Shown here in pieces: positions 18,479-58,598 of a stretch of DNA of 64,000 nucleotides. The stretch's first letter is position 1. Each line of letters opens with the position of its first letter. The notes beneath the pieces are model-generated. The model was given only the letters and a program-made list of their open reading frames with translations, was not told the origin of the DNA and did not search any database. Made by a program: the position numbers and the translations under genes. Origin of the DNA: Candidatus Latescibacterota bacterium (GTDB lineage Bacteria > Latescibacterota > UBA2968); NCBI GenBank assembly GCA_965198115.1, contig OZ240241.1:7296001-7360000 (forward strand). The letters are read 5' to 3'.

Positions 18479-18535
18479 CTATTGCGTCCTGAACCTCTGC
18501 AGGATTATCTACAGACCTAACGCTGTGTCTGCATC

Positions 18536-18681
18536 GCATCGTTGCAAGTCCTTCGCCCACAACGACTTATCGCTCGCGGATTATATGCTGCGGCGGCCTG
18601 TTTCCGACGCGGATTGTATGTGGCGGCATACTTCTCCCGTCAGGCACCGGGCCGCCGCTGCGGCATACTTCTCCCGTCAGA
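18536..18681. repeat. Partial second copy of the 32.8 kb repeat array
   Basis: CGCGGATT(G/A)TATG x2 and CGGCATACTTCTCCCGTCAG x2; colinear with about 32773-32917. Confidence 0.85.
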
Positions 18682-18866
18682 TCGCAGTGTTGACCGACAT
18701 CGCTTCGGGCTGGACGGAGTGCCTGCCACTGCTCGTGCGAGAGCAGGGCTTGATATACATGTAACGAAAGCTACCCATGTCTGGCCCACTGAGGCTCGTG
18801 GCGGAGCGACTGGACCCTCCTACGGGTCTCTCTGGACGTATCCTGACAACTTCGAGGAGACAAGCG

Positions 18867-19736: not shown

Positions 19737-20083
19737 GTGCCCGGCCCGACAGCAGCAGTAGTCAACAAGACAACGGCGGCGGCCGCAGCGGGGAATCCCA
19801 TGAATGAGGCATGTCCCGCGCAACGGCATGAATCGGCCTACCCGCGCTCGGAACTGTTCGAGCGCCGTCGCCGGCGGATGGACGACCGAGCGGCGGTCTC
19901 TTTCCCAATCCACGCGAGATTCTATTTCCTTCCAGATGGCTTCGTGAGGGAAAGATCAGGACCAGGTGTCTAAATATATTAGTTGCTTGATTTGTTGGTC
20001 TTTGTCCGCCTGAATTCCTCAGAGGAGTGGTATTCTGCGACCAACTCCGCTACTTCTGCATATTCACGCGTCTCACGTTCCTC

Positions 20084-20380
20084 TCAGGCGCGAAAAGCCC
20101 CCAATGACTCTTTGAGGAATTTCGAAAAAGCGCCGTTACGCCCCGGGCTCCAATCTCCAATCCTCTTTCCATCTGCGTCTGTGAATTCGCCGCACAGGAT
20201 CATGACGAAGTCGACCAATGTCCAAAATCCTAGGCCCCCAAGAGTGAGAAGTTGAATGATCGCAGTCTTCGTCTTTCCTGCATAGAAGCGATGGCCTCCA
20301 AATCCCCCAAATAGGAAAGCAAGGAGCAAAGCTACCATCCGATTCTTGGAACTCATGGTAGTAACCCTACTTTCTTCCAT
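20084..20380 (-). CDS. TM2-domain membrane protein
   Basis: SKNRMVALLLAFLFGGFGGHRFYAGK...LLTLGGLGFWTLVDF...FTDADG. Confidence 0.85.
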   Translation of the reverse strand: MEESRVTTMSSKNRMVALLLAFLFGGFGGHRFYAGKTKTAIIQLLTLGGLGFWTLVDFVMILCGEFTDADGKRIGDWSPGRNGAFSKFLKESLGAFRA

Positions 20381-20451
20381 ATTCCTTCCCACTCCGATCC
20401 GAAAAGCTATTAACCCGTTTTTTTGGGTGCGGTGTTAGTTAGCTGGCTCGG

Positions 20452-20826
20452 TCAATTCGCATCGCCTTGAAACGGCAGGGTCTCGATGAAACGGGCCATC
20501 CGCGCAGCTTCTTGCGCCGTTAAGTCTACTGGGAGTTCAACAGTAACGGACTGATCGGATCGTAGGCGAAATGTGTGCTTGAAGAGGCTATTACCTCCGT
20601 TTTCTTCTCCCTTTTCCTCCTGAGATACTTCTTCGACTTGTTCAGTTTCACCAGCTGCTGCCTGCCCAACTCCAACCATCTGAACATCCCATTCAAAGCG
20701 TGACGTCCACCCTTTTCTCCCAACCGTGAAACTTCCGCAACCGCAATCTTCCAACTTCCGAAACACCCTGATGACGTCTCCCCGATAAACATTTTGACCC
20801 TCGTTCAAGAGATTCCAGTGAATTCG
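20452..20826 (-). pseudogene. Hypothetical protein, 5' end cut by IS256-B left end
   Basis: Protein-like ORF (GRKGWTSRFEW; HTFRLR..VELPVDLTAQEAARMARFIETLP) abutting the IR at 20827. Confidence 0.55.
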
Positions 20827-20864
20827 GTGAGGTCCCTATCCTAGTTGAAACTTAAAGGGCTCCA
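20827..20864 (+). mobile_element. Isolated IS256-B left IR
   Basis: GGTGAGGTCCCTATCCTAGTTGAAACTTAAAGGGCTCC. Confidence 0.8.
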
Positions 20865-21398
20865 GTAGCCATAACGTCCATATTCGCTGGCCAGAGAGAC
20901 GATGTTCGCGGTCAGGACGGTCTCGCCGTCCGCCACCTTGAGCGTGTATCGCTGGGTACGGCGCACCTGACCCAGCACACGGCACGCCCGACGCTCCGAG
21001 ACAGCCAGGGCCTCACGCACGTGCCCGACCGCCTTCCTTCGCCGCGTCGGGCTCAGAAGTTTCCCCGGGACACCTCCTTGAGAATCGAGATATCCAGGGC
21101 CTGGTCGGCCACAAGACGTTTCAGACGCCCGTTCTCTTGCTCCAGCTCCTTCAGCCGGCGGACCTGGTCGACCTCCATACCGCCGTATTCCTTGCGCCAC
21201 CGGTAGTAGGTCTGTTCGCTGACGCCAAGCTCACGCGAGACCTCGCCGACCGTCTTGCCTTCCGAATATACGAATCTCTGCCTGACGGAGATGTCCGATG
21301 ATCTGCTCCGCTGTGTATCGCTTCCTGGCCATTCGGCCCCCTTTCTATGTTCCGATATCCTAACTTTAGGAATGGGAACAATCCAGGGGGGCAGGTCA
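20865..21398 (-). mobile_element. IS3-family 5' half (same element as 17393-18478)
   Basis: IR TGACCTGCCCCCC at 21398; matches copy 1 over the shared region. Confidence 0.92.
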
Positions 21399-21490
21399 TG
21401 AGGATGTGGGCAAAACGAGCAGCGTGCGCTACAGTGGTTTGTCAGCTCAATTTCGACCGTGTGCGGCTCCGGACTAGGTGGGTAATCCAT
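21399..21490 (-). pseudogene. Radical SAM protein N-terminus, truncated by IS3
   Basis: PHTVEIELTNHCSARCSFCP (CxxxCxxC); starts 11 bp after the serS stop with an AAGGGG RBS. Confidence 0.85.
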
Positions 21491-21501
21491 TAACGTCCCC
21501 T

Positions 21502-22740
21502 TTACCTTTTAATCTTCGTCATCCCATTGAGGTGGGACACGAGCGGTGGCGGAACGACGATCGAACCATCCGGTTCTTGGTAGTTCTCGATAATGACTGC
21601 GATCAAGCGGTCACAGAACCCAGTTGCAGATATAGTGTGAGGAAAGCCTCGTTCTTGTCCCACTTTGTAACGTATATTTCCACGACGAGTCTGGTAATCA
21701 CCCAGATTCGTATCTGAAGTCATCTCCCTGTAACGTGCCTGGTTGGGGAGCCACGCTTCAGTATCGTATTTAATCATGCCGGCAGCTGACAGATCCCCAG
21801 ACGAGGTGAGGACAACCCGGAATGGGATTTCAAGCTCCTGCATCAACCATTCAGCATTCTCTAGGCAACGCTGGTGCCATTCCTCCGATTCCGACGGATG
21901 ACAATACACAATCTGCTCCAGCTTATAGAACTGATGCACCCTGATGATGCCAGCGGTATCTCGTCCGTAGCTTCCTGCTTCGGTACGAAAACACATGGAG
22001 TCACCTAGGTATAATTTCGGTAACGACGTGAGCATTTCGTCCATATGGAGACCGAGAAGAATCTGTTCGCTCGTGCCAATTAGCGATAGGTCTTCTCCAG
22101 AAATGCGGAAGTTTTCTTTCTCCGAAAATGGCAGATAACCCGAACAGAACAGAGTCTGATCTTTAGCCAAGTACGGCGGAGAAATCAGTTCGAAACCTTG
22201 GATGTTGGCGCGTTCGTAGAACATCCGCATGAGCCCCATTCTCATGAGGACGGCTTCGTTCTTAAGGCAGTAAAACCGGGATTTAGCTGCATTGACGGCC
22301 CTGGGTATATCCAAAAGATCTAACGCGGCCCCGATTTCTCCATGTGGCCGGGGGGAAAAACTAAAGGATGGTGGCGAGCCAACGGTCCTAACGACGGTGT
22401 TCGCCTCTTCCCCACCAACTGGGACGCGGGGATCGAGAAGATTAGGGACCCAACTTAGCCGTTCCTTCAACTCGCGTTCCACTTTGTCGAGATCCCGAGA
22501 CAGATGTGATTCTTCTTTCTTCAATCGTTTGACTTCCTCCCGCCGCTCGATGTTTTCTCCGGAGCTCCACGACTTCGAGACTTCCTTGATTTGTTGACGT
22601 AGTGAATCCGCTTTCGAAATTAGCAACCGCCGTTCTCGGTCAAGCATCGCGATTGCATCGACATCAATGTCAGCACCCCGGGCTACACAATTAGCGCGGA
22701 TTTTCTCAAGTTCATGCCGAATTAGCTTAATATCTATCAT
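21502..22740 (-). CDS. serS: Seryl-tRNA synthetase, divergent accessory paralog
   Basis: MIDIKLIR coiled-coil arm, [44 protein letters not shown] and [15 protein letters not shown]. Confidence 0.92.
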
Positions 22741-22795
22741 TGTTGTAGCGAATATTGGGTACTATGTGAGACAGGACTGGACGACAAGAGTCATT

Positions 22796-24169
22796 GAGCT
22801 CAGGTCAATAGGTGTGTAAAAGAAATCAGGCGGCCATCTTCCCGGCTTCGACCTGCGGTTCGGTTGAGTGTTTCTGATCGTAGACTTGTTGTAGCAAGTG
22901 TGGCGCGGTGAGTTTCCTGAATCGGCTCTCTGCGACCTTGAGCGTACGCCAGATGAGAGCCGTGGCGTTCCTGACTTTCTTGAATCGCCTGGCGGCGTTT
23001 GTGCGAAGCCGAACGGAAGCAAAGGGGCTCTCGACGACGTTCGTGGTTCTCAGGTGTTTCCAGTGTTCCTTCGGGAAGTCGTAGAACGTGACCATCCGAT
23101 CCCAGTCTCTTTCGAGCGTCTCCACGGCGGCAGGGAACTGTGAGCGATACCGTGCGGCAAAGCGTTTCCGGAGCTTCTCGGCCTCCTTTTTCGTGCCGGC
23201 ATAGGGGATCTGGACGAGCAGTGCGCGGGCTTCAGCCTGTGCACGCTTGGCGACCTTGTCGAGCACGTTGAGGATCTTGTGGTTCCAGCACCGTTGTTGC
23301 CGGCTCTCTGGCCAGACCTGATCAACGGCCGCCCAGATGCCCATATTCCCGTCCGCGGCGATCAGGACAGGATGTTCGAGCCCGCGATCCCGGAGATCCC
23401 GGAGCACCGTGAGCCAGGATTCTGTAGACTCTCGATAACCGGGTTCTATCGCCAGGATCTCCTTGCTGCCGTCGCTCATCGCGCCGATCACGACCAGCAG
23501 ACACGCCTTCTCGCGCTCGAGCCCGGCTTTGACGTAGATGCCATCAGCCCAGGCGTAGACCAGTTCGCGATTATCCAGACGCCTTTCTTTCCAGTCCTGG
23601 AAGTCGACCTCCCACTTCCCTCGAAGACGAGCGATCGAGGTCGGCGAAAGCGGCGCGCCATCACCGAGCAGCGCACGCAAAGACAACTCGAAGTCGCCCT
23701 GGGAGAGACCGTGGAGATAAAGGTCGGGAAGCAGATCTCCAATGGCCCTGGTTCTCCGGGCGAACAGGGGGAGGATGCGGCTTTCAAACCGCTCTTCCAG
23801 ACCACGAACCCGGGGACGCCGGACCTTGATCGTTCCGCAGCTCGTCGAGAGACGCCGGGGCTTGCCGTAGCCGTTCCTGTAGCCCGTGGAGCTATCGACC
23901 TCGGCTCGGCGCTCATACCACGACCGGCCCAAGAACGCGGTCGCCTCCTCCTCCAGAATGGACTGGAACCGGCCCTGGATCTCTTCACGGATCCAATCGT
24001 CAACCGTCTCCCACGTCGGCATGGACTTCAATGGGGCTCTATGCGTATGTTCCTTCACGGCGATCCTCCTTCCCAACCGGGCCTCTCACCCGGTTTTGTG
24101 TGAATCAACTATCTCACGGGAAGGGTAGGGTCGCCCTTTCTCTTTTTCCACACCTTTTGATTATAGCTC
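22796..24169 (-). mobile_element. IS256-family type A, intact, copy 1 (transposase 22826-24076)
   Basis: 1374 bp; TSD GAGTCATT at 22788-22795 and 24170-24177; DDE motifs (WADG, ADG, RTTNVVES). Confidence 0.96.
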
Positions 24170-24628
24170 GAGTCATTCCACAATTCATGCTTCCCCCAAT
24201 TGAGTCCGAGTGCCTTCCAACACAATGCCGTCTGTGAAACGACAGATCGTAGCATTGCCGTCATTTACTCTCTCGGGTCCCTTTTCTATCTTTCGTTGCA
24301 GATGTGTTGTGTCGAGGGGAGGGATCTGAAACTACCCAAGCTGTGATTTAAGAATCCATATACGGATCCTGCCATGGCGGTGAGGTATTTTGAGGGACGA
24401 GATTTCCCCACCAAATTGTGCCCCATCAAGATTTGATTTCGATTGCTAAACATCGTTCGCTTCGTTTTAGAACTATGAGATTGGTTGACATCCAGAAGGG
24501 AATCCATACGCCTTCGTGTTCCACTGTAGGGTTGCGCAAAAGTGCTGGTACATCTATCTCCTTCCGTCCTTCGATTACTACTCTACCTAATTCCTCACAC
24601 ATCCCCGAATCCACAACGTAGTAGTGCC

Positions 24629-26002
24629 GAGCTATAATCAAAAGGTGTGGAAAAAGAGAAAGGGCGACCCTACCCTTCCCGTGAGATAGTTGATTCACAC
24701 AAAACCGGGTGAGAGGCCCGGTTGGGAAGGAGGATCGCCGTGAAGGAACATACGCATAGAGCCCCATTGAAGTCCATGCCGACGTGGGAGACGGTTGACG
24801 ATTGGATCCGTGAAGAGATCCAGGGCCGGTTCCAGTCCATTCTGGAGGAGGAGGCGACCGCGTTCTTGGGCCGGTCGTGGTATGAGCGCCGAGCCGAGGT
24901 CGATAGCTCCACGGGCTACAGGAACGGCTACGGCAAGCCCCGGCGTCTCTCGACGAGCTGCGGAACGATCAAGGTCCGGCGTCCCCGGGTTCGTGGTCTG
25001 GAAGAGCGGTTTGAAAGCCGCATCCTCCCCCTGTTCGCCCGGAGAACCAGGGCCATTGGAGATCTGCTTCCCGACCTTTATCTCCACGGTCTCTCCCAGG
25101 GCGACTTCGAGTTGTCTTTGCGTGCGCTGCTCGGTGATGGCGCGCCGCTTTCGCCGACCTCGATCGCTCGTCTTCGAGGGAAGTGGGAGGTCGACTTCCA
25201 GGACTGGAAAGAAAGGCGTCTGGATAATCGCGAACTGGTCTACGCCTGGGCTGATGGCATCTACGTCAAAGCCGGGCTCGAGCGCGAGAAGGCGTGTCTG
25301 CTGGTCGTGATCGGCGCGATGAGCGACGGCAGCAAGGAGATCCTGGCGATAGAACCCGGTTATCGAGAGTCTACAGAATCCTGGCTCACGGTGCTCCGGG
25401 ATCTCCGGGATCGCGGGCTCGAACATCCTGTCCTGATCGCCGCGGACGGGAATATGGGCATCTGGGCGGCCGTTGATCAGGTCTGGCCAGAGAGCCGGCA
25501 ACAACGGTGCTGGAACCACAAGATCCTCAACGTGCTCGACAAGGTCGCCAAGCGTGCACAGGCTGAAGCCCGCGCACTGCTCGTCCAGATCCCCTATGCC
25601 GGCACGAAAAAGGAGGCCGAGAAGCTCCGGAAACGCTTTGCCGCACGGTATCGCTCACAGTTCCCTGCCGCCGTGGAGACGCTCGAAAGAGACTGGGATC
25701 GGATGGTCACGTTCTACGACTTCCCGAAGGAACACTGGAAACACCTGAGAACCACGAACGTCGTCGAGAGCCCCTTTGCTTCCGTTCGGCTTCGCACAAA
25801 CGCCGCCAGGCGATTCAAGAAAGTCAGGAACGCCACGACTCTCATCTGGCGTACGCTCAAGGTCGCAGAGAGCCGATTCAGGAAACTCACCGCGCCACAC
25901 TTGCTACAACAAGTCTACGATCAGAAACACTCAACCGGACCGCAGGTCGAAGCCGGGAAGATGGCCGCCTGATTTCTTTTACACACCTATTGACCTGAAC
26001 TC
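24629..26002 (+). mobile_element. IS256-family type A, intact, copy 2 (transposase 24722-25972)
   Basis: 1374 bp; flanking GTAGTGCC at 24621-24628 and 26004-26011 (or a 9-bp duplication with one mismatch). Confidence 0.96.
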
Positions 26003-26196
26003 GGTAGTGCCTTCGAAACTTCTTCAATCCAATACTCCTGTTTCTGTTCGTTGACGTGCCAATGCCCACCTTGTCCGGGGGGGGCAGCCGTCATAATAAC
26101 ACGACTTGGCCTGAATCTGACAATATTGCGGATGAATTCATCAGAGTACTCTTCCTCGATGTGTTCAGCAACCTCTATGGAAAGAACAGTATCGGC

Positions 26197-27591
26197 GGTG
26201 TTGTGCCTATCGTAGTTGAAACTTAGAGGGCTCCAAACTTACGTTGGGTAGACGTGTAGGAGCGTATACCCGTAAGAAAGGAGCCCAGATGGAGAAGCTA
26301 TTTGTAAGCGATGGTGAAGTCAAGGTTGAGGGCGATGTCATCGATTTGGAGACGCGTTTGTCGGTGATCCAGGCGTTGATCCCGTTGGGTCTGGAGGCAG
26401 TGGCAGACCTCCTCCAGCAGGAGGTCGAGCAGCTCGCAGGCGTTCGGTATGCGCGCAAAGGTTCGGAGCAGGCGCATCGTCGGTGGGGGGTGTGTCCAGA
26501 GATTTGTGTAACTGGTGACACGATTACTTTAACGGGACACGATCTTCGAACATGATGGCGAACCGGTTGATGGCCCCATTCCAATCATTCAGTGGCCGGG
26601 TCCATCGTTTGGAGATGTTTCGGATCGCCAGATACAGGAGTTTGATGGCGGCCTGATCATTCGGGAACGCGCCTCTGTTCTTCGTGACTTTCCGGAGCGA
26701 TGCGTTCATTGACTCGATGGCGTTCGTCGTGTAGATCACCTTCCGGATCTCTGGTGGGTAGGCGAAGAACGGGGTTCCAGGAGCGTCCCCTCGACGACTA
26801 CGGCTTCGTGACCCTCTTCATTGACGGAAAGAGCTTTGCCGACGAAGAGATCGTGATCGCTCTGGGGGTCACGATGGACGGCCAGAAGATCCCCCTGGGC
26901 TTCGTCGAATCGGCGACGGAGAACGAACGGATCTGCCGCCAGCTGATCCAGGACCTCATCCGGAGAGGCCTGTGCTACGATCAAGGCCTCCTCGTTGTGC
27001 TTGACGGCTCAAAGGGGCTCCGCAGTGCCGTCACCAAAGCCCTCAAAGGGTATGTGCGCGTGCATCGCTGTCAGTGGCACAAGCGCGAGAATGTCGTCAG
27101 CTATCTCCCGGAGAGGGAACGTCCAAGAGTTCGACGGAAGCTCCAGAAAGCCTATGACTGCGACACCTACGAGGAGGCAAAGGCCGCACTCGAATCACTT
27201 AAACCCGAACTGAAGCTGATGAATCAGTCTGCCGTAACGAGCCTCGAGGAAGGCCTGGAGGAAACCCTGACCCTCCACCGGCTGGGTATGCTCCCGTTCC
27301 TGAAACGAAGCTTCCGAACCACCAACTGCATCGAAGCCCTCAACAGCAGGACCGGCGAGCTCACTCGGAAGGTCAGACGCTGGAACAACTCTCCCCAGAG
27401 ACACAGATGGGTGGCTGCCGCACTCCTCGACATCGAACCTCGCCTGCGACGCGTGAGCGGATACAAACATCTTCCCCTACTCAGGCAAGCACTGAACAAA
27501 GATCTGAATCTCGACAACGAACAGAATGCTCAAAAGAGAGCCTGACCAAACTACGGGGCCCGATGAGTTTCAACTGACTATGGGACTTGAC
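26197..27591 (+). mobile_element. IS256-family type B, disrupted by an opposite-strand IS256 fragment
   Basis: Left IR at 26197 and right IR ...TTTCAACTGACTATGGGACTTGACC; FIDGK, LDGSKG, RCQWHK and RTTNCIE motifs. Confidence 0.88.
26488..26780 (-). mobile_element. Canonical IS256 3' fragment (type D)
   Basis: YPPEIRKVIYTTNAIESMNASLRKVTKNRGAFPND; end TTACACAAATCTCTGGACACACCC. Confidence 0.88.
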
Positions 27592-27865
27592 CCCGGGGGC
27601 CTATAACCCTGTCTTAGTCTTAAAACCAGTTTCACAGCCCCAGACTGTGATATAACTCTCTCACTGGCACTGGTACAAAATATCGGTCTGGTCAATGACT
27701 GAAGAGGTTGGTAGAAGAAGGCATTCAGGTTACCAGCCGCCGTCGGCCAAAGTTGCAACACAACCCACCCCTCCCTCTGAAAGACTGCCACCGACGGGCC
27801 GGCTTCTTGATCCTACCGCCCCGGTGGCCAACCACGATCCGTCGACCCGGCTCTACATGTCGGCT

Positions 27866-28744
27866 TCAGAACACGTAGCGCAAAGATACCCGAAGTCCAT
27901 GATTCGATAGATTCGCTCGGGTTTTGGCAAGGTCAAACTCCAGCGGGTCGCGACTTCCGTCGCGCCAGACAACCCGGCCTTTGGCCTGGCCGGTCTCCAC
28001 GGTACCGGAATCCGTGTAACGCCAGGCAAGATTCAGCGTTACCCTCTCCCCCAGCGATTTTGCAACTCCCGCAGCCAGCATCCAGGCAAAATTAACCTGT
28101 TCTCCGCCGGGAACGACGGTGGTCGTCTTCGGGAACTCCATGAGAGTTTCATCAATATTGACGCGGGACAGGCCACCACCACCCCCGATAAACGGCCTGA
28201 GGGGCCCGAGTCGAGGCAGGCCGACTTCGGTCAGATCCCAGTACGCAGCCAGCAAGCCGTGCAGTGAGGACAAATCCGCTGAAACATCCTGCCTGTCGGT
28301 GGTTTGTACAAAATTGGAGAGACCCTTGAAGGAAAACCTCGGGTGGTACTCAATAACAGCTTCCAGCCGAAGGGCAGGCGTCATGGCATAGCCGAACCCG
28401 AGATCGAAACCGGTCATTGTTCCGAAATCGCCACGTGCACTCAACGGGGTGCCGTCAAGGCCCTCCCCGCAGCCATAAAGAGCCGCCGGAGAGGTAATCG
28501 AGCAGTTCTTGTCCTGGAACCGCGTTTCTTCCGACCAGTCGAACACAACTCCAGTCACGAAATAGAATCTTGCCGAAGCGGCGGCCGTGTCGGAGACAGG
28601 CGGTGTGGGAGTCCGGCCGGGTGGCGTGGATGCGTCTTCACCTCTGGTATCGGTGGTTTGTGCGCATGTAATAACCGGAATGACCGCCACCATAATAGCC
28701 GCAACAAAGGCTGTCCGAGTCCATGATTCAAGAAAACCGATCAT
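27866..28744 (-). CDS. Outer-membrane beta-barrel protein (opacity-porin-like)
   Basis: Signal peptide; LRLEA, PFIGGGGG, FAWMLAAGV and LAWRYTDSG strands; C-terminal LRYVF. Confidence 0.8.
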   Translation of the reverse strand: MIGFLESWTRTAFVAAIMVAVIPVITCAQTTDTRGEDASTPPGRTPTPPVSDTAAASARFYFVTGVVFDWSEETRFQDKNCSITSPAALYGCGEGLDGTPLSARGDFGTMTGFDLGFGYAMTPALRLEAVIEYHPRFSFKGLSNFVQTTDRQDVSADLSSLHGLLAAYWDLTEVGLPRLGPLRPFIGGGGGLSRVNIDETLMEFPKTTTVVPGGEQVNFAWMLAAGVAKSLGERVTLNLAWRYTDSGTVETGQAKGRVVWRDGSRDPLEFDLAKTRANLSNHGLRVSLRYVF

Positions 28745-28948
28745 CGGTTTATCTGTGAATCTCCAGGCTTTCCGCCACCCACCGATTTGTTGTCCTGATC
28801 CGCCATGTTAGAGGGTGCCCTGTTCTTGCTTCTCGGTGATGCGGCGCTGGATCAAGACGTTGATCTCCTCGGCCATTTTGGTCTTGCGCATGACGCAGCA
28901 TGGTTATCCGCAGGAACATCTTTGTGGTCTTCCAACTCGATTGCCTAG

Positions 28949-29318
28949 CCTGAATCATGCATGAATTTGAGTTTAGGTTGTTTTGGAGTGATGTGATCAC
29001 GCACAGGATTTGTTCTCGGCTTCTTCGGATGTCCAAGGTCCCGTAAGCGGTCTCTACGAGTCGCAAGAGTCACGATTTTCGTCCGGAACAGGTGTTGTTT
29101 TGCGACGTGTACATAGCTGTCCCCGGTATAGATCGGCGTTGTTACTGCGTGTTCGTTTCGAGCCTGGTGATGATTGACACCAAGACGTTTTTGAGTGGAT
29201 ACGATGTTGGAAAATGGAATCGGATTCTTCGTGCGCTTTCAATGACTCTCGCGCCGATTTTGAGGAAACGGTTCTGTATCGTGTTGACCTGAGGTTTGGT
29301 CCACGCGGTGCCCTTGAG
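28949..29318 (-). mobile_element. IS1380-family 3' fragment
   Basis: TIQNRFLKIGARVIESARRIRFHFPTSYP; end next to CTAG; matches the copy at 39199-39643. Confidence 0.85.
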
Positions 29319-30075
29319 CTTTGCCGACGAAGAGATCGTGATCGCTCCGGGCGTCACGACGGACGGCCAGAAGATCCCCCTGGGCTTCGTCGAATCGGCG
29401 ACGGAGAACGAACGGATCTGCCGTCAGCTGATCCAGGATCTCATCCGGAGAGGCCTGTGCTACGACCAGGGCCTTCTCGTTGTGCTGGACGGCTCAAAGG
29501 GACTCCGCAGTGCCGTCACCAAAGCCCTCAAAGGGGATGTGTGCGTGCATCGCTGTCAGTGGCACAAGCGCGAGAACGTCGTCAGCTACCTCCCGGAGGC
29601 AGAACGTCCAAGAGTTCGACGGAAACTTCAGAAAGCCTATGACTGCGACACCTACGAGGAGGCAAAGGCCGCACTCGAATCACTCAAACCCGAACTCAAG
29701 CTGATGAATCAGTCTGCCGTGGCAAGCCTCGAGGAAGGACTGGAGGAAACCCTGACCCTCCACCGGCTGGGGATGCTCCCGTTCTTGAAGCGAAGCTTCC
29801 GAACCACCAATTGCATCGAGGCGCTCAACAGCATGACCGGCAACCTGATACGGAAGGTCAACCGCTGGAACAACTCTCCTCAGCGACACAGATGGGTCGC
29901 GGCCGCACTCCTCGACATCGAACCACGCCTGCGACGCGTGAGCGGATACAAACACCTCCCGCTGCTCAGGCAAGCACTGAAAAACAACCTGAATCTCGGC
30001 GACAATCAAGATGCTCGGCAGAGAGCATGAATACCACGGAGCCCGATGAGTTTCAACTGACTATGGGACTTGACC
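29316..30075 (+). mobile_element. IS256-family type B 3' part
   Basis: Near-identical to about 26831-27591; right IR ends at 30075. Confidence 0.88.
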
Positions 30076-30403
30076 GTATCGGCCTTCTATCCCGACAGCT
30101 GAGGACTAACCGAATAATAGGGAAATCCTTTGCAGTGGCAAGGGGAGAAAACTCACTACCGCGTAGACCATGCTTCCCCATAGTTTTGCAGAAGAGTCGT
30201 CCCGCAATGATGCTTCAAAGCGCGTCTCCACGCTCTAACGAACAACCTATCCATCTCGCCCATAAATTGCCGGACAAACCCACCCGCAGGAAGGAAACGA
30301 AGGCAACCTTCTTCGATATGAGCCCAAGATTGATCGCGACCTGCCTCACGGTCACCTTCCAATCTTAGGTCCATCACCTGAACGACATTCCATAAGTAGA
30401 TTC

Positions 30404-31777
30404 GAGCTATAATCAAAAGGTGTGGAAAAAGAGAAAGGGCGACCCTACCCTTCCCGTGAGATAGTTGATTCACACAAAACCGGGTGAGAGGCCCGGTTGG
30501 GAAGGAGGATCGCCGTGAAGGAACATACGCATAGAGCCCCATTGAAGTCCATGCCGACGTGGGAGACGGTTGACGATTGGATCCGTGAAGAGATCCAGGG
30601 CCGGTTCCAGTCCATTCTGGAGGAGGAGGCGACCGCGTTCTTGGGCCGGTCGTGGTATGAGCGCCGAGCCGAGGTTGATAGCTCCAGGGGCTACAGGAAC
30701 GGCTACGGCAAGCCCCGGCGTCTCTCGACGAGCTGCGGAACGATCAAGGTCCGGCGTCCCCGGGTTCGTGGTCTGGAAGAGCGGTTTGAAAGCCGCATCC
30801 TCCCCCTGTTCGCCCGGAGAACCAGGGCCATTGGAGATCTGCTTCCCGACCTTTATCTCCACGGTCTCTCCCAGGGCGACTTCGAGTTGTCTTTGCGTGC
30901 GCTGCTCGGTGATGGCGCGCCGCTTTCGCCGACCTCGATCGCTCGTCTTCGAGGGAAGTGGGAGGTCGACTTCCAGGACTGGAAAGAAAGGCGTCTGGAT
31001 AATCGCGAACTGGTCTACGCCTGGGCTGATGGCATCTACGTCAAAGCCGGGCTCGAGCGCGAGAAGGCGTGTCTGCTGGTCGTGATCGGCGCGATGAGCG
31101 ACGGCAGCAAGGAGATCCTGGCGATAGAACCCGGTTATCGAGAGTCTACAGAATCCTGGCTCACGGTGCTCCGGGATCTCCGGGATCGCGGGCTCGAACA
31201 TCCTGTCCTGATCGCCGCGGACGGGAATATGGGCATCTGGGCGGCCGTTGATCAGGTCTGGCCAGAGAGCCGGCAACAACGGTGCTGGAACCACAAGATC
31301 CTCAACGTGCTCGACAAGGTCGCCAAGCGTGCACAGGCTGAAGCCCGCGCACTGCTCGTCCAGATCCCCTATGCCGGCACGAAAAAGGAGGCCGAGAAGC
31401 TCCGGAAACGCTTTGCCGCACGGTATCGCTCACAGTTCCCTGCCGCCGTGGAGACGCTCGAAAGAGACTGGGATCGGATGGTCACGTTCTACGACTTCCC
31501 GAAGGAACACTGGAAACACCTGAGAACCACGAACGTCGTCGAGAGCCCCTTTGCTTCCGTTCGGCTTCGCACAAACGCCGCCAGGCGATTCAAGAAAGTC
31601 AGGAACGCCACGACTCTCATCTGGCGTACGCTCAAGGTCGCAGAGAGCCGATTCAGGAAACTCACCGCGCCACACTTGCTACAACAAGTCTACGATCAGA
31701 AACACTCAACCGGACCGCAGGTCGAAGCCGGGAAGATGGCCGCCTGATTTCTTTTACACACCTATTGACCTGAACTC
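30404..31777 (+). mobile_element. IS256-family type A, intact, copy 3 (transposase 30497-31747)
   Basis: 1374 bp; TSD GTAGATTC at 30396-30403 and 31778-31785. Confidence 0.96.
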
Positions 31778-31832
31778 GTAGATTCTGCGATATCCGATTC
31801 TTCCGCTGAAAACGTGTCACCACATAGACTCA

Positions 31833-32763
31833 TCACTCAATTCTTAAATCGTACCTTTGGAATGTCTCCTTAAGAAATTCATCATTCTTCCCCTTTCGGA
31901 TATTGACCCACTTAAGCGCCCTCCGTCCTGTACCGAAAACAGGGGGGAAGTCATCGTGCTTCGGTTCGAGCTTAAGGCAACGTGTGCCCTTAAGTCATGA
32001 CTTTAAACCATATGTCGTCGGCAGTGGGAGCGAGTTCCCTCATCGCTGTTTCATCGTGGACTTCGCGGGACAAGGATAGTGGTGGGTACAGCACGCCGTC
32101 CCTTCCTGTTGGGAACAACGATAGACTAGGTCCCCGTCCGGTATGTTCTGGCCATTCTGTGTAGGGCAGAAGATTGCCGTCCGGATCACACGACATTGTC
32201 CACCCACGATAGCACACAATGCACGACGGGTACCCAAGGTGGGTAAGGTATAGCTTCTCTAGCCAACTTCTCGGATAGACAACGTCATCATCCGCTGTAA
32301 CGATGACTTCCTTCGGATATTCTCGCAGAGCAGGAAGTAGCTTGGTATGTGGGCCTACATCTTGCGTCCACTTAACACTTAGACCTCTCTTCGACAGCCT
32401 CATTAGATTTGCCATTCTGTCAGATGTTGGCTTTAGGATAGGATCCGACTCCGATAACCATAAGATGAGAACATCTGGTTTTAGAGATTGACGGAGCAAT
32501 GACTCCAAAGCTACGTGTGCCCGACCCACACGGTCTGAAGTGGTTGTAAGACTGACTACAAGCAGCCTCCTGTCCTGGCTCGTAGTGTCGACTCCGACCG
32601 TACTGCACCAACGTCCGGCGACCGGGAGGATGAGCCCTTGCGCTAGCCCCACAGCCAGTCTTCGGCACTTCTTGACGGCCCGAAGTGCAGTCTCGGAAGT
32701 ACTCGCCCCCCGTTTCCTCAGTGTTCTTTTCGCTCTCAAGGCTCTCTGAGGACCTATCGCCAT
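31833..32763 (-). pseudogene. GT-A fold glycosyltransferase with frameshifted C-terminus
   Basis: VVSLTT, ESLLRQSLKPD, IVTADDDVVYP (DxD), FPTGRDGVLYPP and APTADDIWF; tail ALKWVN..KNDEFL lies in another frame. Confidence 0.85.
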
Positions 32764-32772
32764 AGCGACATA

Positions 32773-33177
32773 GCATCGTTGCAAGCCCTTCGCCTGCAAC
32801 GACTTATCGCTCGCGGATTGTATGTGGCAGCGGCCTGTTTCCGACGCGGATTGTATGCTGCGGCATACTTCTCCCGTCAGACGCCGGGCGGCGCTGCGGC
32901 ATACTTCTTCCGTCAGACTGCATCACCGGCGCACAGGCCTCTGTCGGTGCCCAGTCCGCCAGGACGCACTGCCTGACGCGGATTCTATGTGTCGCAGCAG
33001 GTAGCCTGACGCGGATTGTATGGCGCAGCGGCGTCAGCCTGACGCGGATTGTATCCGTGCGCATAGATTGCGCGTGTCTCGGCGAGCGGCGGCAGGGGTG
33101 ACATGAGAGTACAAAAAATATCCGTCAGATTTTTCCTGTGAGCCTCCGGGTACAAAAAATATCCGTCAGATTTTTCT
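32773..33177. repeat. Iteron-like repeat array
   Basis: (CTGA)CGCGGATT(G/C)TATG at 32812/32845 and 32971/33004/33037 (33-bp period); inverted variants near 32857/32893; 27-bp direct repeat at 33109/33150. Confidence 0.85.
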
Positions 33178-51518: not shown

Positions 51519-52724
51519 TCACCCCGCGTCCGGACGCTTGATAAACCTCTCCCCACCCTTCAACCAATTGCCGGCGTGGATGCCCGGGTTGAATTCGTAG
51601 AGAGATTCTAAACCTTCGAGTGTCTCAAGACTCCCAATCTCTCGGAATACGTCTTCACCAGGGTCGTGCAGGTTGAATGTGTAGATACCCGAGACGCCAG
51701 CCTCCCAAGCGTTGGCCGCTTCTCCGCGCCAGATCGGGCCGAATAACGGATGTCCGCGCGCCATCCATCCGCCGGTTTCCTTGAGTGATTCAGGGTCGAG
51801 GAAGCTGCTTCGCTTCAGGCGAGAGGCGCTGATGCACGCATAGGTGGGCACGTCGTGACGCTTGCCCAGCTCTGCCCAGTTCTCCCACGGTTCCAGATGG
51901 TCGTAGCCGCCGCCGGCGACGATATCCACCAGATCTTCTGTCATCCAGCGCTCGATGTCGAAACCGATGGCTTTGGAATAGCCGACCGAGTCGAAGACGC
52001 GAACGACAATCAACAATGGGCGGCCCCGTTGCCGATCGACTTCGTCCGTCATACGCCGAACACGGGTGAGGAGATCGGTCATAAGGTCGCAGTGATCCTG
52101 GGTGACGGGGTCACCGGTCATCTGGGGACGAAAGTAATGGGGGTGGCGATAGAAATCGAGGTCGATGCCGTCGACGTCGTAATTCGTGCAGATGTCTTCG
52201 ATGACGCGAAACACTTTTTCTCGAACGAGGTCCTTCCCGTAGTCGAGACCCGACCACCTTCCACCTCCGTAGGGAGGAACCTCACCTGGTTTACCGAGGA
52301 GACAATCGGGGTGATCCTTCTTCCACTGGGGGAAAAATTCGGGTCGCTTGGCGTCGTGTGTGTCATTCATTCGAAACGACCGGAAAATTTCTATCCCGTT
52401 TGCGCGGCCGAAGTCGATCTTGAGCTGCAGGCCATCGTAACCCTGATCTTTCAGCGCCTTCGCCCAGTCGTGGACGGGTCCGCCCCCCAGGGACAGGTCG
52501 TACGATTCCCGATCCGGGTCGAGCTCGAAGAATTCTCCGGCCGTATTGTCGAGGATGGCGTCGACCTGAGATCCACCGAGAGGCCCGACCCGATACTTGA
52601 GGAAATTCTCGGGCGTCCTCGGCTCATCGTCCGGTGTCCGGGTCGTATCACCGCCGTCCGTGTTCATGAGGATGCGGCGAGGTCGGCGGGCTTCGCGTCG
52701 TCTTTGTTCGATGAACTCATCCAT
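51519..52724 (-). CDS. GHL10-like TIM-barrel protein
   Basis: SFRMNDTH, YDVDGIDLDF.R and GVSGIYTFN motifs. Confidence 0.7.
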   Translation of the reverse strand: MDEFIEQRRREARRPRRILMNTDGGDTTRTPDDEPRTPENFLKYRVGPLGGSQVDAILDNTAGEFFELDPDRESYDLSLGGGPVHDWAKALKDQGYDGLQLKIDFGRANGIEIFRSFRMNDTHDAKRPEFFPQWKKDHPDCLLGKPGEVPPYGGGRWSGLDYGKDLVREKVFRVIEDICTNYDVDGIDLDFYRHPHYFRPQMTGDPVTQDHCDLMTDLLTRVRRMTDEVDRQRGRPLLIVVRVFDSVGYSKAIGFDIERWMTEDLVDIVAGGGYDHLEPWENWAELGKRHDVPTYACISASRLKRSSFLDPESLKETGGWMARGHPLFGPIWRGEAANAWEAGVSGIYTFNLHDPGEDVFREIGSLETLEGLESLYEFNPGIHAGNWLKGGERFIKRPDAG

Positions 52725-52739
52725 GACAGACAGGAATCC

Positions 52740-53867
52740 TCACTCAGGCTTCAGCCAGCGCCCTCTACGATCCCGGGCGTAGACAAATTGGCTGTCGTAA
52801 CGTTCGTCCCGGGTGTAACCCGAGTGGCCGCTTATCAGTTCGACCGCATAGGACTCGACCGCATCGTCGACGATGTCGATTCCGAGGCCGGGGCCCTCGG
52901 GAATCTTGATGTAGCTGTCGACGACCTCGGGCTGTGGCGCCATGATTTCGTAACGATAATGGGCATCGCCCGTGCGATGTTCCCAGATCAGGAAATTTGG
53001 TATTGTCGCGCAGAGGTGCAGGGAAGCGATTTCTCCGATCGGACCGAGCGAGCCGTCGTGCGGGGCGAACTGGATGTAGTGGGCTTCGGCCATGCCGGCA
53101 AGTTTCTTCATTTGGGTCAGTCCGCCGAATCGACCCGCATCGGGCTGGATCACGTCGACGATCTCTCGTTCGATCAACTCCTTGGCGCCGTAGATGAAAG
53201 CAAGTCGCTCACCGGCTGCGAGCGGGACGTTGATGGCCTCCGAGATGCGGGCAAGGGCATCCGGGTTTTCCGGAGCGACGGGCTCTTCGTAAAAGAAGAT
53301 GCCGTAGTCCTCGAGCACACGACCCATCGAAATGGCATCGCGTGTGGTCATCCAGGGCGGGCCGTGCAGATCGGCCATGATGTCGACGTCATCTCCGACT
53401 TCTGCCCGCATGTCGGCCACGCGCTTGGCCGCGCCTTCGACCCCGCCCATCTTCAGACCATTGTAGCCTTCATCGACCAACGCACGGGCCTTCTCCGGCG
53501 TGTCGGCGTGGGTGTAGCATCGGAGGGTTTCGCGCATCCGACCGCCCAACAGCTGCCAGACCGGCATGTCGAACGCTTTCCCCTTGATGTCCCAGAGGGC
53601 GGTTTCGATGGCCGCCATAGCGCCGCCCGCCACGATACCTGTCATGGCGTGCGACTGGAGAAACATCTTGCTCCAGCAGCGCTCGATGTTGAACGGGTCT
53701 TCACCGATGATGACCGTGGCCTTGTTGTGGATTTCGGTCTGTATGGCAGGCATGGCCGTGGCTTCCCCTACACCGTAGATACCCTCGTCCGTGAATACGC
53801 GGCAGAACAGGAATTTTCGTCCACCAGGCTCGCCGGCGGTGTAGGTCTTTACTTCTGTGATTTTCAT
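52740..53867 (-). CDS. Mandelate racemase/DgoD-like acid-sugar dehydratase, paralog 1
   Basis: GVGEA, ALWDIKGK, DLHG, YEEP, GER, QPD, APH and WEH. Confidence 0.92.
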   Translation of the reverse strand: MKITEVKTYTAGEPGGRKFLFCRVFTDEGIYGVGEATAMPAIQTEIHNKATVIIGEDPFNIERCWSKMFLQSHAMTGIVAGGAMAAIETALWDIKGKAFDMPVWQLLGGRMRETLRCYTHADTPEKARALVDEGYNGLKMGGVEGAAKRVADMRAEVGDDVDIMADLHGPPWMTTRDAISMGRVLEDYGIFFYEEPVAPENPDALARISEAINVPLAAGERLAFIYGAKELIEREIVDVIQPDAGRFGGLTQMKKLAGMAEAHYIQFAPHDGSLGPIGEIASLHLCATIPNFLIWEHRTGDAHYRYEIMAPQPEVVDSYIKIPEGPGLGIDIVDDAVESYAVELISGHSGYTRDERYDSQFVYARDRRGRWLKPE

Positions 53868-53951
53868 GACGTCCTCATTCCAGAGAAGAGGTTGTTCAAG
53901 AATCGCGGGTTGGTCGTCGTGGAGGCCATCCGACTGGTCAGAGAAAGCGAG

Positions 53952-55076
53952 TCACTCCGGGCGGAGCCAGCGTGCCCTTGGGAAACGTGCGTAAACATAT
54001 TGAGCTTTGTAGGTGTCGTCCTGAGCGTATGAGATGAAACCTCCCACCAGGTCACAAGCATACTGTTCGATCGCTTCGTCGACGAGGTCGACGCCCAGTC
54101 CGGGTCCTTCCGGGATGGTGATGTAGCTGTCGACGACCTCTGGTTGGGGCTCCATGACTTCATATCGGATCTGAACGTCTCCAGTCATGTGCTCCCAGAT
54201 GAGAAAGTTGGGAATCGCCGAACACAGGTGCAGCGAAGCGATCTCGCCCACGGGCCCAAGGGATCCGTCGTGGGGTGCGAACTGGATGTAGTGCGCCTCG
54301 GCCATGCCGGCCAGCTTCTTCAGTTGTGTGAGACCGCCAAAGCGACCCGCGTCGGGCTGGATGACATCGACGATTTCCCGTTCGATCAGTTCTCGTGCGC
54401 CGTAGATGTAGGCGAGACGTTCGCCAGCCGCGAGCGGAATGTTGATGGCGTCGGAGACACGGGCCATGGCCTCGACGTTCTCGGGGGCGACGGGTTCCTC
54501 GTAGAAGAAGACGCCGAACTCTTCGAGTCTCCTGCCCATCGAGATGGCATCGCGAGTCGTCATCCACGGCATGCCGTGCAGGTCGACCATGATGTCGATG
54601 TCGTCGCCCACTTCGTTGCGTATCGCGGTGATATCCCGGATGCAGTGTTCGATCCCTCCCATTTTGAGTCCGGTGTAACCCTCATCGACGACTTCGCGTG
54701 CCCGCTCAGCCGTTTCGGCGTGGGTGTAGGCACGGAGGCTTTCCCGCATTCGGCCACCGAGGAGCTGCCAAACGGGCATGCCGAAGGCCTTTCCCTTGAT
54801 GTCCCAGAGGGCCGTCTCGATAGCCGACATCGCGCCTGCCCCGACGATGCCGGACATCCCGTGGGTCATCAGGAACATCTTGCTCCAACAGCGCTCGATA
54901 TTGAAGGGGTCTTCGCCGATGAGGACGTTGCCCTTCTGATGAATCTCCGTCTGGATGCTTGGCCAGGCGGAGGCCTCGCCTACTCCGTAAATGCCTTCAT
55001 CGGTGAACACTCTGCAGAACAGGAAGTTTCGTCCGTTCTGACCGACGGAGTAGGTCTTGACTTCGGTGATCTTCAT
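53952..55076 (-). CDS. Mandelate racemase/DgoD-like dehydratase, paralog 2
   Basis: Same motifs; highly similar to its neighbours. Confidence 0.92.
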   Translation of the reverse strand: MKITEVKTYSVGQNGRNFLFCRVFTDEGIYGVGEASAWPSIQTEIHQKGNVLIGEDPFNIERCWSKMFLMTHGMSGIVGAGAMSAIETALWDIKGKAFGMPVWQLLGGRMRESLRAYTHAETAERAREVVDEGYTGLKMGGIEHCIRDITAIRNEVGDDIDIMVDLHGMPWMTTRDAISMGRRLEEFGVFFYEEPVAPENVEAMARVSDAINIPLAAGERLAYIYGARELIEREIVDVIQPDAGRFGGLTQLKKLAGMAEAHYIQFAPHDGSLGPVGEIASLHLCSAIPNFLIWEHMTGDVQIRYEVMEPQPEVVDSYITIPEGPGLGVDLVDEAIEQYACDLVGGFISYAQDDTYKAQYVYARFPRARWLRPE

Positions 55077-55165
55077 GGGGGCCCTCATTCAAGAACGCGT
55101 TCTTCAACCATCATGTGGATGGTCGTCCTGACACCATCCGACTCCGGGTCAATGAGGATGCGGAT

Positions 55166-56334
55166 TCACTCCGGCGGAGCCAGCGCGCTCTCGGGAAACG
55201 TGCGTAGACATACTGCGCGTTGTAGGTGTTGTCCTGGGTGTAGCCAGCGAAACTGACGAGATCGGTTGCGTATTTCTCGACGGCGTCATCGACGAGGTCG
55301 ACCCCCAGTCCGGGTCCGTCCGGAATGACCATGTAGCCGTCCACGACCTCCGGCTGTGGGGCCATGATCTCGTAGCGACACTGAACGTCCATGGTCAAAT
55401 GCTCCCAGATAAGGAAATTGGGGATCGCAGAACACAGGTGGAGGGACGCGATTTCCCCCACGGGTCCGAGGGAGCCGTCGTGGGGCGCGACCTGGATGTA
55501 GTGTGCCTCGGCCATGCCCGCCAGCTTTTTCAGTTGAGAGAAACCCCCGAAGCGCCCTGCGTCGGGTTGAATGACGTCGACGATTTCTCGCTCGATCAGT
55601 TCACGCGCACCGTAGATGTAGGCGAGCCGCTCGCCGGCTGCCAGCGGGATATTGATCGCGTCGGAAACGCGGGCGAGGGCCTCGACGTTTTCTGGGGCGA
55701 CCGGTTCTTCATAAAAGAAAACACCGAACTCTTCGAGTCTCCGGCCCATCGAAATGGCATCGCGCGTCGTCATCCACGGCATGCCGTGCAGGTCGACCAT
55801 GATGTCGATGTCGTCTCCGACTTCCTTCCGAACCGCGGTGATATTGCGGACAATGTGTTCGATTCCGCCCATCTTGAGCGCACCATAGCCCTCATCCACG
55901 AGCTCTCGTGCTTTCTCGGCTAAAGCCATCGTTTCGCGACGACCCTCAAGATCGTGCCACGCGTGCCCGAGGGCGGCGTGCGTGTAGCAACGAAGCCGCT
56001 CACGCATCCGGCCGCCCAGAAGCTGCCAGACGGGCATCCCGAATGCCTTTCCCTTGAGGTCCCACAGAGCCGTCTCGATGGCCGACATGGCTCCTGCGCC
56101 GACGATGCCGGACATGCCGTGGGTCATCAGGAACATCTTGCTCCAACAGCGCTCGATGTTGAACGGGTCTTCACCAATGATGACGTTTGCCTTTTGATGA
56201 ATCTCGGTCTGGATGCTGGGCCAGGCCGAAGCTTCACCGAGTCCATAGAGCCCTTCGTCCGTGAAGACTTTGCAGAACAGGAAGTTCCGGCCTCGTTCTC
56301 CTGGTGTGTAGGTTTTGACTTCGGTGATTTTCAT
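55166..56334 (-). CDS. Mandelate racemase/DgoD-like dehydratase, paralog 3
   Basis: Same motifs. A 1-bp loss at WLR(P)E* extends the called ORF to 55111. Confidence 0.9.
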
Positions 56335-56450
56335 GACGTACCCGATCGCCTTTTGAAGGGAACCACAGAAAACACGGAAGGGTGGGTGCTACGGGAATCC
56401 AGGCCCTATTCGGGAAAATGAATGGGATGTCGGGAAAAGTAGAGCAGTCT

Positions 56451-57236: not shown

Positions 57237-57405
57237 GAATCCTACTATCGCTCGTCAGTGCTCATGCTCCGAACTGGAGTTCACGGAGAGAAGCCGAAGC
57301 AAAGCCCACCGCTCATCCCGAGTGACCATCTTGCTACGCCGGCAACGCGGAGCTGCTCAAAGAAGACAGAGTAAGGTCGTATCGAAGGACGAACGGTGTC
57401 ACACC

Positions 57406-58566: not shown

Positions 58567-58598
58567 CTTTTCACGAAAGGAAAATACCCCGCTGAGTT

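What the first reader, a model, noticed from the sequence alone, without database searches (positions are those of the whole stretch)
21399..32763. Hidden operon: glycosyltransferase, methyltransferase, divergent SerRS and radical SAM, recovered by excising four insertions
Seen: three IS256-A copies and one 3.9-kb composite each have their own TSD (GAGTCATT, GTAGTGCC, GTATCGGC, GTAGATTC). Removing them joins AT-richer, minus-strand pieces into GT-A glycosyltransferase, class I MTase (SIEVAEH / PGQGGHWHVNEQ type), SerRS and a CxxxCxxC radical SAM gene starting 11 bp after serS. Known: accessory SerRS paralogs supply Ser-tRNA in biosynthesis (valanimycin VlmL) or confer self-resistance (albomycin AbmK). 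Inference: this is a horizontally acquired cluster for seryl or other aminoacyl decoration of a glycan, or for an aaRS-inhibitor-type metabolite. I know of no described system with this combination. Only serS remains intact.
Basis: partly seen in the sequence, partly recalled or inferred. Interest (0 to 1): 0.75.

Follow-up and report, generated by a model that had tools for sequence, protein, structure and literature searches.

The report
Decayed island with spare serine synthetase
This is a wrecked patch of foreign DNA in which jumping genes have cut up three already broken sugar-coat and radical-SAM genes around one intact spare serine-tRNA-charging gene, which likely works only as a second ordinary synthetase, so a new pathway is possible but not shown.

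Summary
The four 8-bp target duplications, the intact 412-aa serS and the CxxxCxxC stub 11 bp after it are real, and the genome has a separate housekeeping serS (34% identical). The DNA is foreign (50% GC against 59%) and lies in an IS-rich island beside tRNA-Val and an integrase. But excision does not recover an operon. The glycosyltransferase is frameshifted, the methyltransferase lacks its N-terminal half and is frameshifted, and the radical SAM gene is a 31-codon stub whose remainder was not found in the genome. The SerRS keeps its catalytic residues and belongs to a rare, patchy clade with its own motifs. Synteny did not recur: 0 of 84 serS loci carry this glycosyltransferase or methyltransferase family, and 0 of 25 clade loci have a radical SAM gene directly downstream. 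Relatives of those two genes sit in ordinary polysaccharide clusters. A different branch of the clade does sit in a SAM-synthetase/AlaRS-core/radical-SAM module, like one this scan noted on other DNA; that module's synthetase and AlaRS-core genes were not found here. Verdict: decayed island cargo with a spare SerRS; the proposed four-gene system is unproven (about 20%).

The parts
20865..21398 (-). IS3-family remnant (5' part) that truncates the radical SAM gene; itself cut by an IS256-type end at 20826-20864
   Evidence: 99-100% match to other IS3 copies, left end at 21398; HTH_Tnp_1 and IS3 hits
21399..21490 (-). Radical SAM gene stub, about 31 codons, with CxxxCxxC
   Evidence: Sequence; PF04055 positions 1-17 at E 0.18, below cut-off; remainder not found in genome
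21502..22740 (-). Intact second seryl-tRNA synthetase, 412 aa, of a rare clade
   Evidence: TIGR00414 358.5 bits over cut-off 301.65; 34% to housekeeping SerRS; tree; motifs
22796..24169 (-). IS256-family copy 1, duplication GAGTCATT at 22788-22795 and 24170-24177, 55 bp upstream of serS
24178..24425 (.). Unassignable DNA between methyltransferase stop and serS
   Evidence: No Pfam hit in six frames at E up to 1
24426..24628 (-). Methyltransferase 3' piece
   Evidence: 45% to P0242 residues 194-255, in a different frame from the middle piece
24629..26003 (+). IS256-family copy 2, duplication GTAGTGCC
26012..26196 (-). Methyltransferase middle piece (SIEVAEH, PGQGGHWHVNEQ) with a frameshift near 26020
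   Evidence: 70% to P0242 residues 137-199; 3600 representatives at E up to 0.001
26197..30075 (+). 3.9-kb composite: second IS256-family element in two partial copies, nested IS pieces and a cargo gene; duplication GTATCGGC
27866..28744 (-). Outer-membrane beta-barrel-like cargo gene inside the composite
   Evidence: PF13505 E 1.1e-5, just under cut-off; 76% paralogue elsewhere in the genome
30084..30403 (.). Unassignable decayed DNA where the methyltransferase 5' half would be expected
   Evidence: No match to methyltransferase profile or homologues; no Pfam hit
30404..31777 (+). IS256-family copy 3, duplication GTAGATTC
31833..32763 (-). GT-A-type glycosyltransferase pseudogene, frameshifted near 31993
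   Evidence: 46% and 38% to P0122 in two frames; PF00535 19.2 bits, under cut-off 23.3; same letters in public contigs
32751..32892 (.). Dispersed repeat overlapping the glycosyltransferase start; second copy at 18514-18655

Best explanation
This is decayed cargo on a foreign, IS-filled island: broken glycosyltransferase, methyltransferase and radical SAM genes, likely left from a surface-polysaccharide cluster, surround one intact foreign seryl-tRNA synthetase that likely acts, if expressed, as a redundant second enzyme charging tRNA-Ser. Shown: the breaks, the insertions, the foreign composition, the separate housekeeping serS and the conserved catalytic residues. Inferred sequence of events: an AT-richer block entered with the element integrated at tRNA-Val; frameshifts and deletions killed the glycan genes; a recent IS256 burst then hit the dead DNA and an IS3 insertion with deletion removed most of the radical SAM gene. 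serS belongs to a clade that moves as a single gene into many settings. It survives either by chance or because an altered second SerRS gives some tolerance to seryl-adenylate mimics (untested). No pathway survives at this locus.
For: Breaks that no insertion explains: glycosyltransferase frameshift, methyltransferase frameshift and missing 5' half. The glycosyltransferase frameshift region is letter-identical in contigs of runs X1 and X3. IS256-A has 133 full copies at mean 99.7% identity. Repeat-rich island from about 6 kb before the window to about 39 kb, starting at tRNA-Val plus a tyrosine-integrase-like gene. 3 of 3 annotated glycosyltransferase-relative regions are polysaccharide clusters (a fourth had no annotation). 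Methyltransferase relatives are fused to GT2, GT-like, TylF or radical SAM/SPASM domains and one annotated relative lies among glycosyltransferases. 0 of 84 serS loci (L003-L086) hold either family, and 0 of 14 glycosyltransferase or methyltransferase loci hold serS. Clade members occur alone or in housekeeping settings such as greA-lysS-serS. Residues T223, E225, R252, E254, F271, E275, E339, T373 and R378 match the clade consensus in 114-115 of 115 proteins and line up with S. aureus and A. aeolicus SerRS.
Against: All four genes are co-oriented, and serS and the glycosyltransferase share GC3 (0.535 and 0.525 against 0.746 for housekeeping serS), which fits arrival as one block. The 11-bp gap and ribosome-site-like run suggest serS and the radical SAM gene were co-transcribed. 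One branch of the clade is tied to a biosynthetic module. serS alone is unbroken, which may mean selection; yet it departs from 6 of 105 conserved columns, more than 91 of the other 114 clade proteins. The synteny sample has no close relative, and many loci are short or near-duplicates.
Confidence: 0.5

Rival explanations
1. serS and the radical SAM gene were the head of a seryl-metabolite module like AbmK/AbmF or AcmD/AcmF. SerRS supplied seryl-AMP or Ser-tRNA and self-protection, the transferase and other genes were lost downstream of the IS3 remnant, and the glycan genes are unrelated neighbours.
For: 11-bp gap with ribosome-site-like run. Loci L011 and L012 carry a clade SerRS with archaeal-type SAM synthetase, AlaRS-core-like protein, radical SAM, DegT aminotransferase and GT4. 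3 of 11 AlaRS-core-like proteins share exact contig length and source with a clade SerRS, against 0.06 expected. About 300 bp of unassigned DNA separates the methyltransferase from serS.
Against: The module-linked SerRSs fall in a different branch from the window protein. 0 of 25 clade loci have a CxxxCxxC frame within 600 nt downstream of serS. No PF01941 and no AlaRS-core-like match in the genome. The stub matches the L011/L012 enzymes only over the generic motif.
Confidence: 0.25
2. One reading: the four genes were one operon in which SerRS fed Ser-tRNA to decorate a surface glycan built and modified by the glycosyltransferase, methyltransferase and radical SAM enzyme.
For: Same strand, same low GC and GC3; none of the three testable genes has a close match in the rest of the phylum, which fits one arrival. 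One methyltransferase relative is fused to radical SAM/SPASM (P0279). One glycosyltransferase relative shares contig length 2583 and source with a clade SerRS.
Against: That single match is what chance gives (1 seen, 0.78 expected). No synteny in 84 serS loci or 14 glycan-gene loci. No aminoacyl transferase recognised among 48 window ORFs or pieces scanned. Unassignable DNA lies at two of the three gene junctions, so the present order may result from deletions.
Confidence: 0.2
3. The breaks are assembly or sequencing errors in a repeat-rich region and the genes are intact in the organism.
For: The region is dense with near-identical repeats; the run that matches best may be the source sample.
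Against: Four exact duplication pairs. Contigs of X1 match 21369-22822, 24143-24627, 30049-30430 and 31750-32859 with no difference or gap, and X3 matches the last two. A missing half gene is not a base-calling error.
Confidence: 0.03

Closest known systems
Bacterial-type seryl-tRNA synthetase (TIGR00414; A. aeolicus 2DQ3, S. aureus 6R1N)
   Same: Full-length two-domain enzyme over the curated cut-off; TxE, motif 2 and motif 3 residues conserved.
   Different: Clade-specific motifs GTSEQ, TS(N/D)TN and HTISATG in place of PTAE, SSCSN and HTLNGSG; second copy on an island.
AbmK, the in-cluster SerRS of albomycin biosynthesis (PMC9032320, PMC8323819; passages read)
   Same: A divergent second SerRS, about one-third identical to the housekeeping copy, next to radical SAM and methyltransferase genes.
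   Different: AbmK works with AbmF, AbmH, AbmD and an NRPS; nothing of that kind was recognised here. The methyltransferase is of a glycan-cluster type and is dead. Orthology to AbmK could not be tested.
VlmL of valanimycin biosynthesis (PMC9032320, PMC12945691; passages read)
   Same: In-cluster SerRS that could supply Ser-tRNA.
   Different: Needs the GNAT-fold transferase VlmA; no GNAT hit among the window ORFs scanned.
AcmD/AcmF of ascamycin biosynthesis (PMC12945691; passages read) and the SAM-synthetase/AlaRS-core/SerRS module of earlier finding e1-2041672
   Same: Another branch of this SerRS clade sits with an AlaRS-core-like protein, archaeal-type SAM synthetase and radical SAM enzyme (L011, L012).
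   Different: Those partners were not found in this genome and the window protein is on a different branch.
Pseudogene decay of genomic-island cargo under IS256 expansion
   Same: Mutator-family transposase, 8-bp duplications, over 100 near-identical copies, nested insertions.
   Different: Nothing different in kind.

Membership tests
Bacterial-type SerRS | TIGR00414 above cut-off, with coiled-coil arm and class II core | tested here: met
   358.5 bits against 301.65; PF02403 and PF00587 over cut-off
Bacterial-type SerRS | Serine-binding TxE, motif 2 Arg/Glu/Phe/Glu, motif 3 Arg | tested here: met
   T223, E225, R252, E254, F271, E275, E339, R378; roles from bioRxiv 10.1101/586255 passages; canonical Asn of motif 3 is Ser371
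Bacterial-type SerRS | Charges tRNA-Ser with serine | not testable with these tools
   Needs an assay
AbmK-type self-resistance SerRS | Divergent second copy beside a separate housekeeping serS | tested here: met
   34% identity
AbmK-type self-resistance SerRS | Lies in a cluster with PLP enzymes, AbmF-like ligase and siderophore NRPS | tested here: not met
   No such Pfam hit among 48 window ORFs or pieces; AbmF itself was not available as a query
AbmK-type self-resistance SerRS | Sequence orthology to AbmK | not tested
   No AbmK sequence was obtained from any tool; the primary paper is not held
AbmK-type self-resistance SerRS | Insensitive to SB-217452 | not testable with these tools
   Needs an assay
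VlmL-type Ser-tRNA supplier | Neighbouring tRNA-dependent GNAT-fold seryl transferase | tested here: not met
   None among ORFs scanned; DNA downstream of the stub is lost
SAM-synthetase/AlaRS-core/SerRS module | Archaeal-type SAM synthetase (PF01941) | tested here: not met
   0 matches in G000; control rang in 4 of 14 genomes, all archaea
SAM-synthetase/AlaRS-core/SerRS module | AlaRS-core-like protein | tested here: not met
   No tblastn hit at E 1e-3 with 2 and then 11 queries
Class I SAM methyltransferase (PF13489-like) | SAM-binding motif I in the N-terminal half | tested here: not met
   Profile positions 1-96 have no match in six frames; a remnant of the family, not a working member
GT-A glycosyltransferase | DxD motif and GT2-like profile | tested here: inconclusive
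   ADDD present; PF00535 19.2 bits under cut-off 23.3; 3 of 4 homologues scanned pass narrowly; frameshifted
Radical SAM superfamily | CxxxCxxC motif | tested here: met
   Sequence; PF04055 1-17 at E 0.18
Radical SAM superfamily | Complete barrel domain | tested here: not met
   Cut after about 31 codons; no continuation recognised beside 10 IS3-type right-end matches, judged by eye, and no close match to the stub elsewhere
IS256 family | Mutator-type transposase, imperfect terminal repeats, 8-9 bp duplication | tested here: met
   PF00872 205.7 bits; ends and duplications; 96 of 133 full copies show 8-9 bp duplications

The most novel reading that the evidence does not exclude
The four genes are the ruin of an undescribed operon in which a mobile SerRS subfamily with an altered serine pocket (GTSEQ / TSNTN / HTISATG) supplied activated serine for decorating a surface glycan, together with a radical SAM enzyme. 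The same subfamily would be recruited elsewhere to housekeeping and to small-molecule modules.
Probability: 0.2. Interest if true: 0.65.

Novelty: new member of a known kind. Interest (0 to 1): 0.27.

Why it matters
As it stands the locus is a neat but ordinary record of island decay. The reusable result is the SerRS clade: about 130 sequences with three diagnostic motifs, scattered over Patescibacteria, Haliangiales, Streptomyces, Anoxybacter, Gemmatimonadaceae and Sphingomonas, and tied in one branch to AlaRS-core transferase modules. It is a usable bait for resistance-guided mining of seryl metabolites. If the glycan link proved true it would add tRNA-dependent seryl decoration of a polysaccharide, for which my searches found no paper.

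Tried and rejected
Genome-collection scan with the single protein returned only four 33-36% housekeeping-type hits, so named genomes of the clade could not be fetched. Viral contigs and plasmids (best 38%) hold no clade member. No clade member at the threshold in 401 Planctomycetota, 299 scored Mycoplasmatota (2 not scored) or 401 Pseudomonadota genomes sampled; these samples had no positive control. A deletion right after an apparent 'VGIEG' motif was considered; frameshift-aware alignment gave shuffle-level scores, so it is not claimed. The 2583-bp contig-length match between P0193 and P0025 is at chance level. No Rfam family or tRNA in the window. No sigma-70-like promoter on the serS strand in 21300-24700. 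No RNA holder listed. No empty-site allele and no continuation of the radical SAM gene among the listed contig pieces; the lists were cut. ESM Atlas added nothing beyond SerRS and weak radical SAM leads. No right-hand attachment repeat of tRNA-Val was seen near the island's other end. A maximum-likelihood tree did not finish; the FastTree result is used. Five clade metagenome records are not held for whole-record search. Paper searches with no usable hit on this clade or gene combination. No structure or complex prediction was run.
Full report
Observation. The four duplications are exact pairs at the stated places. Three 1.37-kb elements encode a Mutator-type transposase; the genome has 133 full copies at mean 99.7% identity, of which 76 show an 8-bp, 20 a 9-bp, 4 a 7-bp and 33 no duplication in a test that allowed one base of slack. 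The 3.9-kb composite has the left and right ends of a second IS256-family element, nested IS pieces and a beta-barrel-like cargo gene; most simply it is one insertion later enlarged by recombination with another copy (inference). The passenger DNA is 50.2% GC over 3331 bp; 0.3% of 1400-bp genome windows are as low.

What excision gives. serS (21502-22740) is whole and needed no excision. The glycosyltransferase is not split by an insertion but is frameshifted near 31993: homologue P0122 aligns at 46% over residues 14-225 in one frame and 38% over 227-276 in another. The methyltransferase aligns to P0242 at 70% (137-199) and, after a frameshift near 26020, at 45% (194-255). A profile of 91 homologues matches only positions 97-203 of 232, and the 367 bp upstream scored 20-29 against shuffled means of 24-27 for 6 of 6 homologue N-termini; the SAM-binding half is gone. 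The radical SAM gene ends after about 31 codons at an IS3 remnant; no close match to the stub exists elsewhere in the genome, and no continuation was recognised by eye beside the other IS3 right ends. Two stretches of about 300-370 bp between the genes have no Pfam hit in the 12 frames tested. Contigs of run X1 match 21369-22822, 24143-24627, 30049-30430 and 31750-32859 without a difference, and X3 matches the last two; X1 and X3 are one sample and may be the source, so this argues against base errors but is not independent. X2, a second sample of the same study, holds identical serS pieces at low depth.

Setting. Repeat coverage is raised from about 6 kb before the window to about 39 kb into it. 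The stretch starts at tRNA-Val(TAC) followed by a tyrosine-integrase-like gene (PF00589 26.8 bits, cut-off 27.1) and an HTH gene. It also holds IstB, EcoEI-type restriction and SF2 helicase pieces. This is an integrative island in decay (inference). The host lineage was not determined.

The SerRS. It passes TIGR00414 and is 34% identical to an intact serS at G000:6945002-6946273. Only G000 has two serS among 31 related genomes, and only G000 has this type among 168 genomes of the phylum. Its GC3 is 0.535 against 0.746 for the housekeeping gene. Its best relatives are 46-64% identical over full length and come from Haliangium, Streptomyces, Anoxybacter, Gemmatimonadaceae, Elusimicrobia, Sphingomonas and Patescibacteria (only the 7997 best candidates were scored). 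In a FastTree tree of 140 rows (115 of 120 hits kept, those of 380 aa or more, plus 25 locus proteins) 131 form one clade (SH 99) with Patescibacteria near the base under a midpoint root; the window protein is sister to a Gemmatimonadaceae protein and P0024. The root and direction of transfer were not tested. The clade reads GTSEQ, TS(N/D)TN and HTISATG where other SerRSs read PTAE, SSCSN and HTLNGSG, and keeps the TxE, motif 2 and motif 3 residues; their roles are taken from passages of bioRxiv 10.1101/586255, mapped through S. aureus numbering. The window protein departs from 6 of 105 conserved columns, more than 91 of the other 114, a weak hint of relaxed selection.

Synteny. A metagenome scan gave 80 loci, 25 of them at 43% identity or more; several are near-duplicates or short. 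None of the 25 has a CxxxCxxC frame within 600 nt downstream of serS (two have under 600 nt of flank). None of 84 serS loci matches full-length glycosyltransferase or methyltransferase homologues, and none of 14 loci of those families holds serS. Contexts seen: greA-lysS-serS in L024 and L027; unrelated neighbours in L007, L008, L021, L022 and L029; the end of a StiP/ter-type cluster in L014, L016 and L018; a RiPP-type radical SAM gene 3 kb upstream on the other strand in L023. In L011 and L012 serS adjoins an archaeal-type SAM synthetase, an AlaRS-core-like protein, a radical SAM enzyme, a DegT aminotransferase and a GT4. 3 of 11 AlaRS-core-like homologues share exact contig length and source with a clade SerRS (0.06 expected), against 1 of 119 glycosyltransferase homologues (0.78 expected). 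Those module-linked SerRSs are in a 31-row branch apart from the window's 70-row branch, and neither partner was found in G000. Earlier AI notes e1-2041672 and e1-2041673 described a similar module on other DNA; they prompted this check and are leads, not support.

The glycan genes. The glycosyltransferase has 464 relatives at E up to 0.001; 3 of 3 annotated regions inspected are capsule or exopolysaccharide clusters. The methyltransferase piece has 3600 relatives; of 16 scanned, 3 are fused to GT2 domains, 1 to a GT-like domain, 1 to TylF and 1 to radical SAM/SPASM. So the radical SAM stub may belong with the glycan genes rather than with serS. Neither gene has a close match in the phylum apart from one 31% methyltransferase hit.

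Mechanism. Most likely (0.5) nothing here works except possibly serS, as a redundant second synthetase carried in with a glycan-cluster fragment. Expression is unknown: an IS sits 55 bp upstream, no promoter-like site was found on that strand and serS has no clear ribosome site.

Known systems. AbmK supplies seryl-adenylate to AbmF and confers immunity, and VlmL serves valanimycin synthesis (PMC9032320, passages; PMC8323819, passages and section 9). AcmF is a truncated AlaRS-like transferase (PMC12945691, passages). Duplicated resistant synthetases of about 30% identity are a known kind (PMC9437257, passages). The window enzyme resembles these as a divergent second copy but lacks their partners, and orthology to AbmK or VlmL is untested. 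Searches returned no paper on this clade or gene combination (listings only); most subscription papers are not searched, and no supplements were read.

Verdict. Real features, overstated reconstruction. New member of a known kind; interest 0.27.

Noticed in passing
L011:509-7700 and L012:393-10999: Clade SerRS beside archaeal-type SAM synthetase, AlaRS-core-like protein, radical SAM, DegT aminotransferase and GT4; L012 adds an Stf0 sulfotransferase and a UDP-GlcNAc 2-epimerase. An intact candidate seryl-metabolite module, more promising than the window locus.
   Followed up: partly
G000:C1:2870558-2872531 (outside the window): Array of 20 tRNA genes in 2 kb, including tRNA-Ile(TAT) and an extra tRNA-Ser(TGA).
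   Followed up: no
G000:C1:7290888-7294970 (L104:4888-8970): tRNA-Val(TAC), tyrosine-integrase-like gene and HTH gene mark the likely left end of the island; partial tRNA-Val copies occur at several other genome sites.
   Followed up: partly
window 18514-18686 and 32751-33091: Dispersed 150-250 bp repeat with internal CGCGGATT units, found at about six genome sites, some near SF2 helicase copies; it brackets 14.2 kb that includes the locus.
   Followed up: partly
whole genome: Massive IS expansion: 228 ISL3, 133 IS256-A, 75 IS256-B and 42 copies of a further IS piece at 90% of query length or more.
   Followed up: no
window 52700-63400: Tandem paralogue runs: mandelate-racemase/enolase-family genes and UxuA-like mannonate dehydratase genes at about 1.2-kb spacing.
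   Followed up: no
window 19973-20825: TM2-domain gene and a 118-aa ORF are duplicated at 99.7% elsewhere in the genome.
   Followed up: no
L013-L020: One subclade of this SerRS follows a StiP/phosphoribosyltransferase/C-C lyase (ter-type) cluster in GC-rich soil contigs.
   Followed up: no
L023:10001-11246: A clade serS at 65% identity is itself split into two frames.
   Followed up: no
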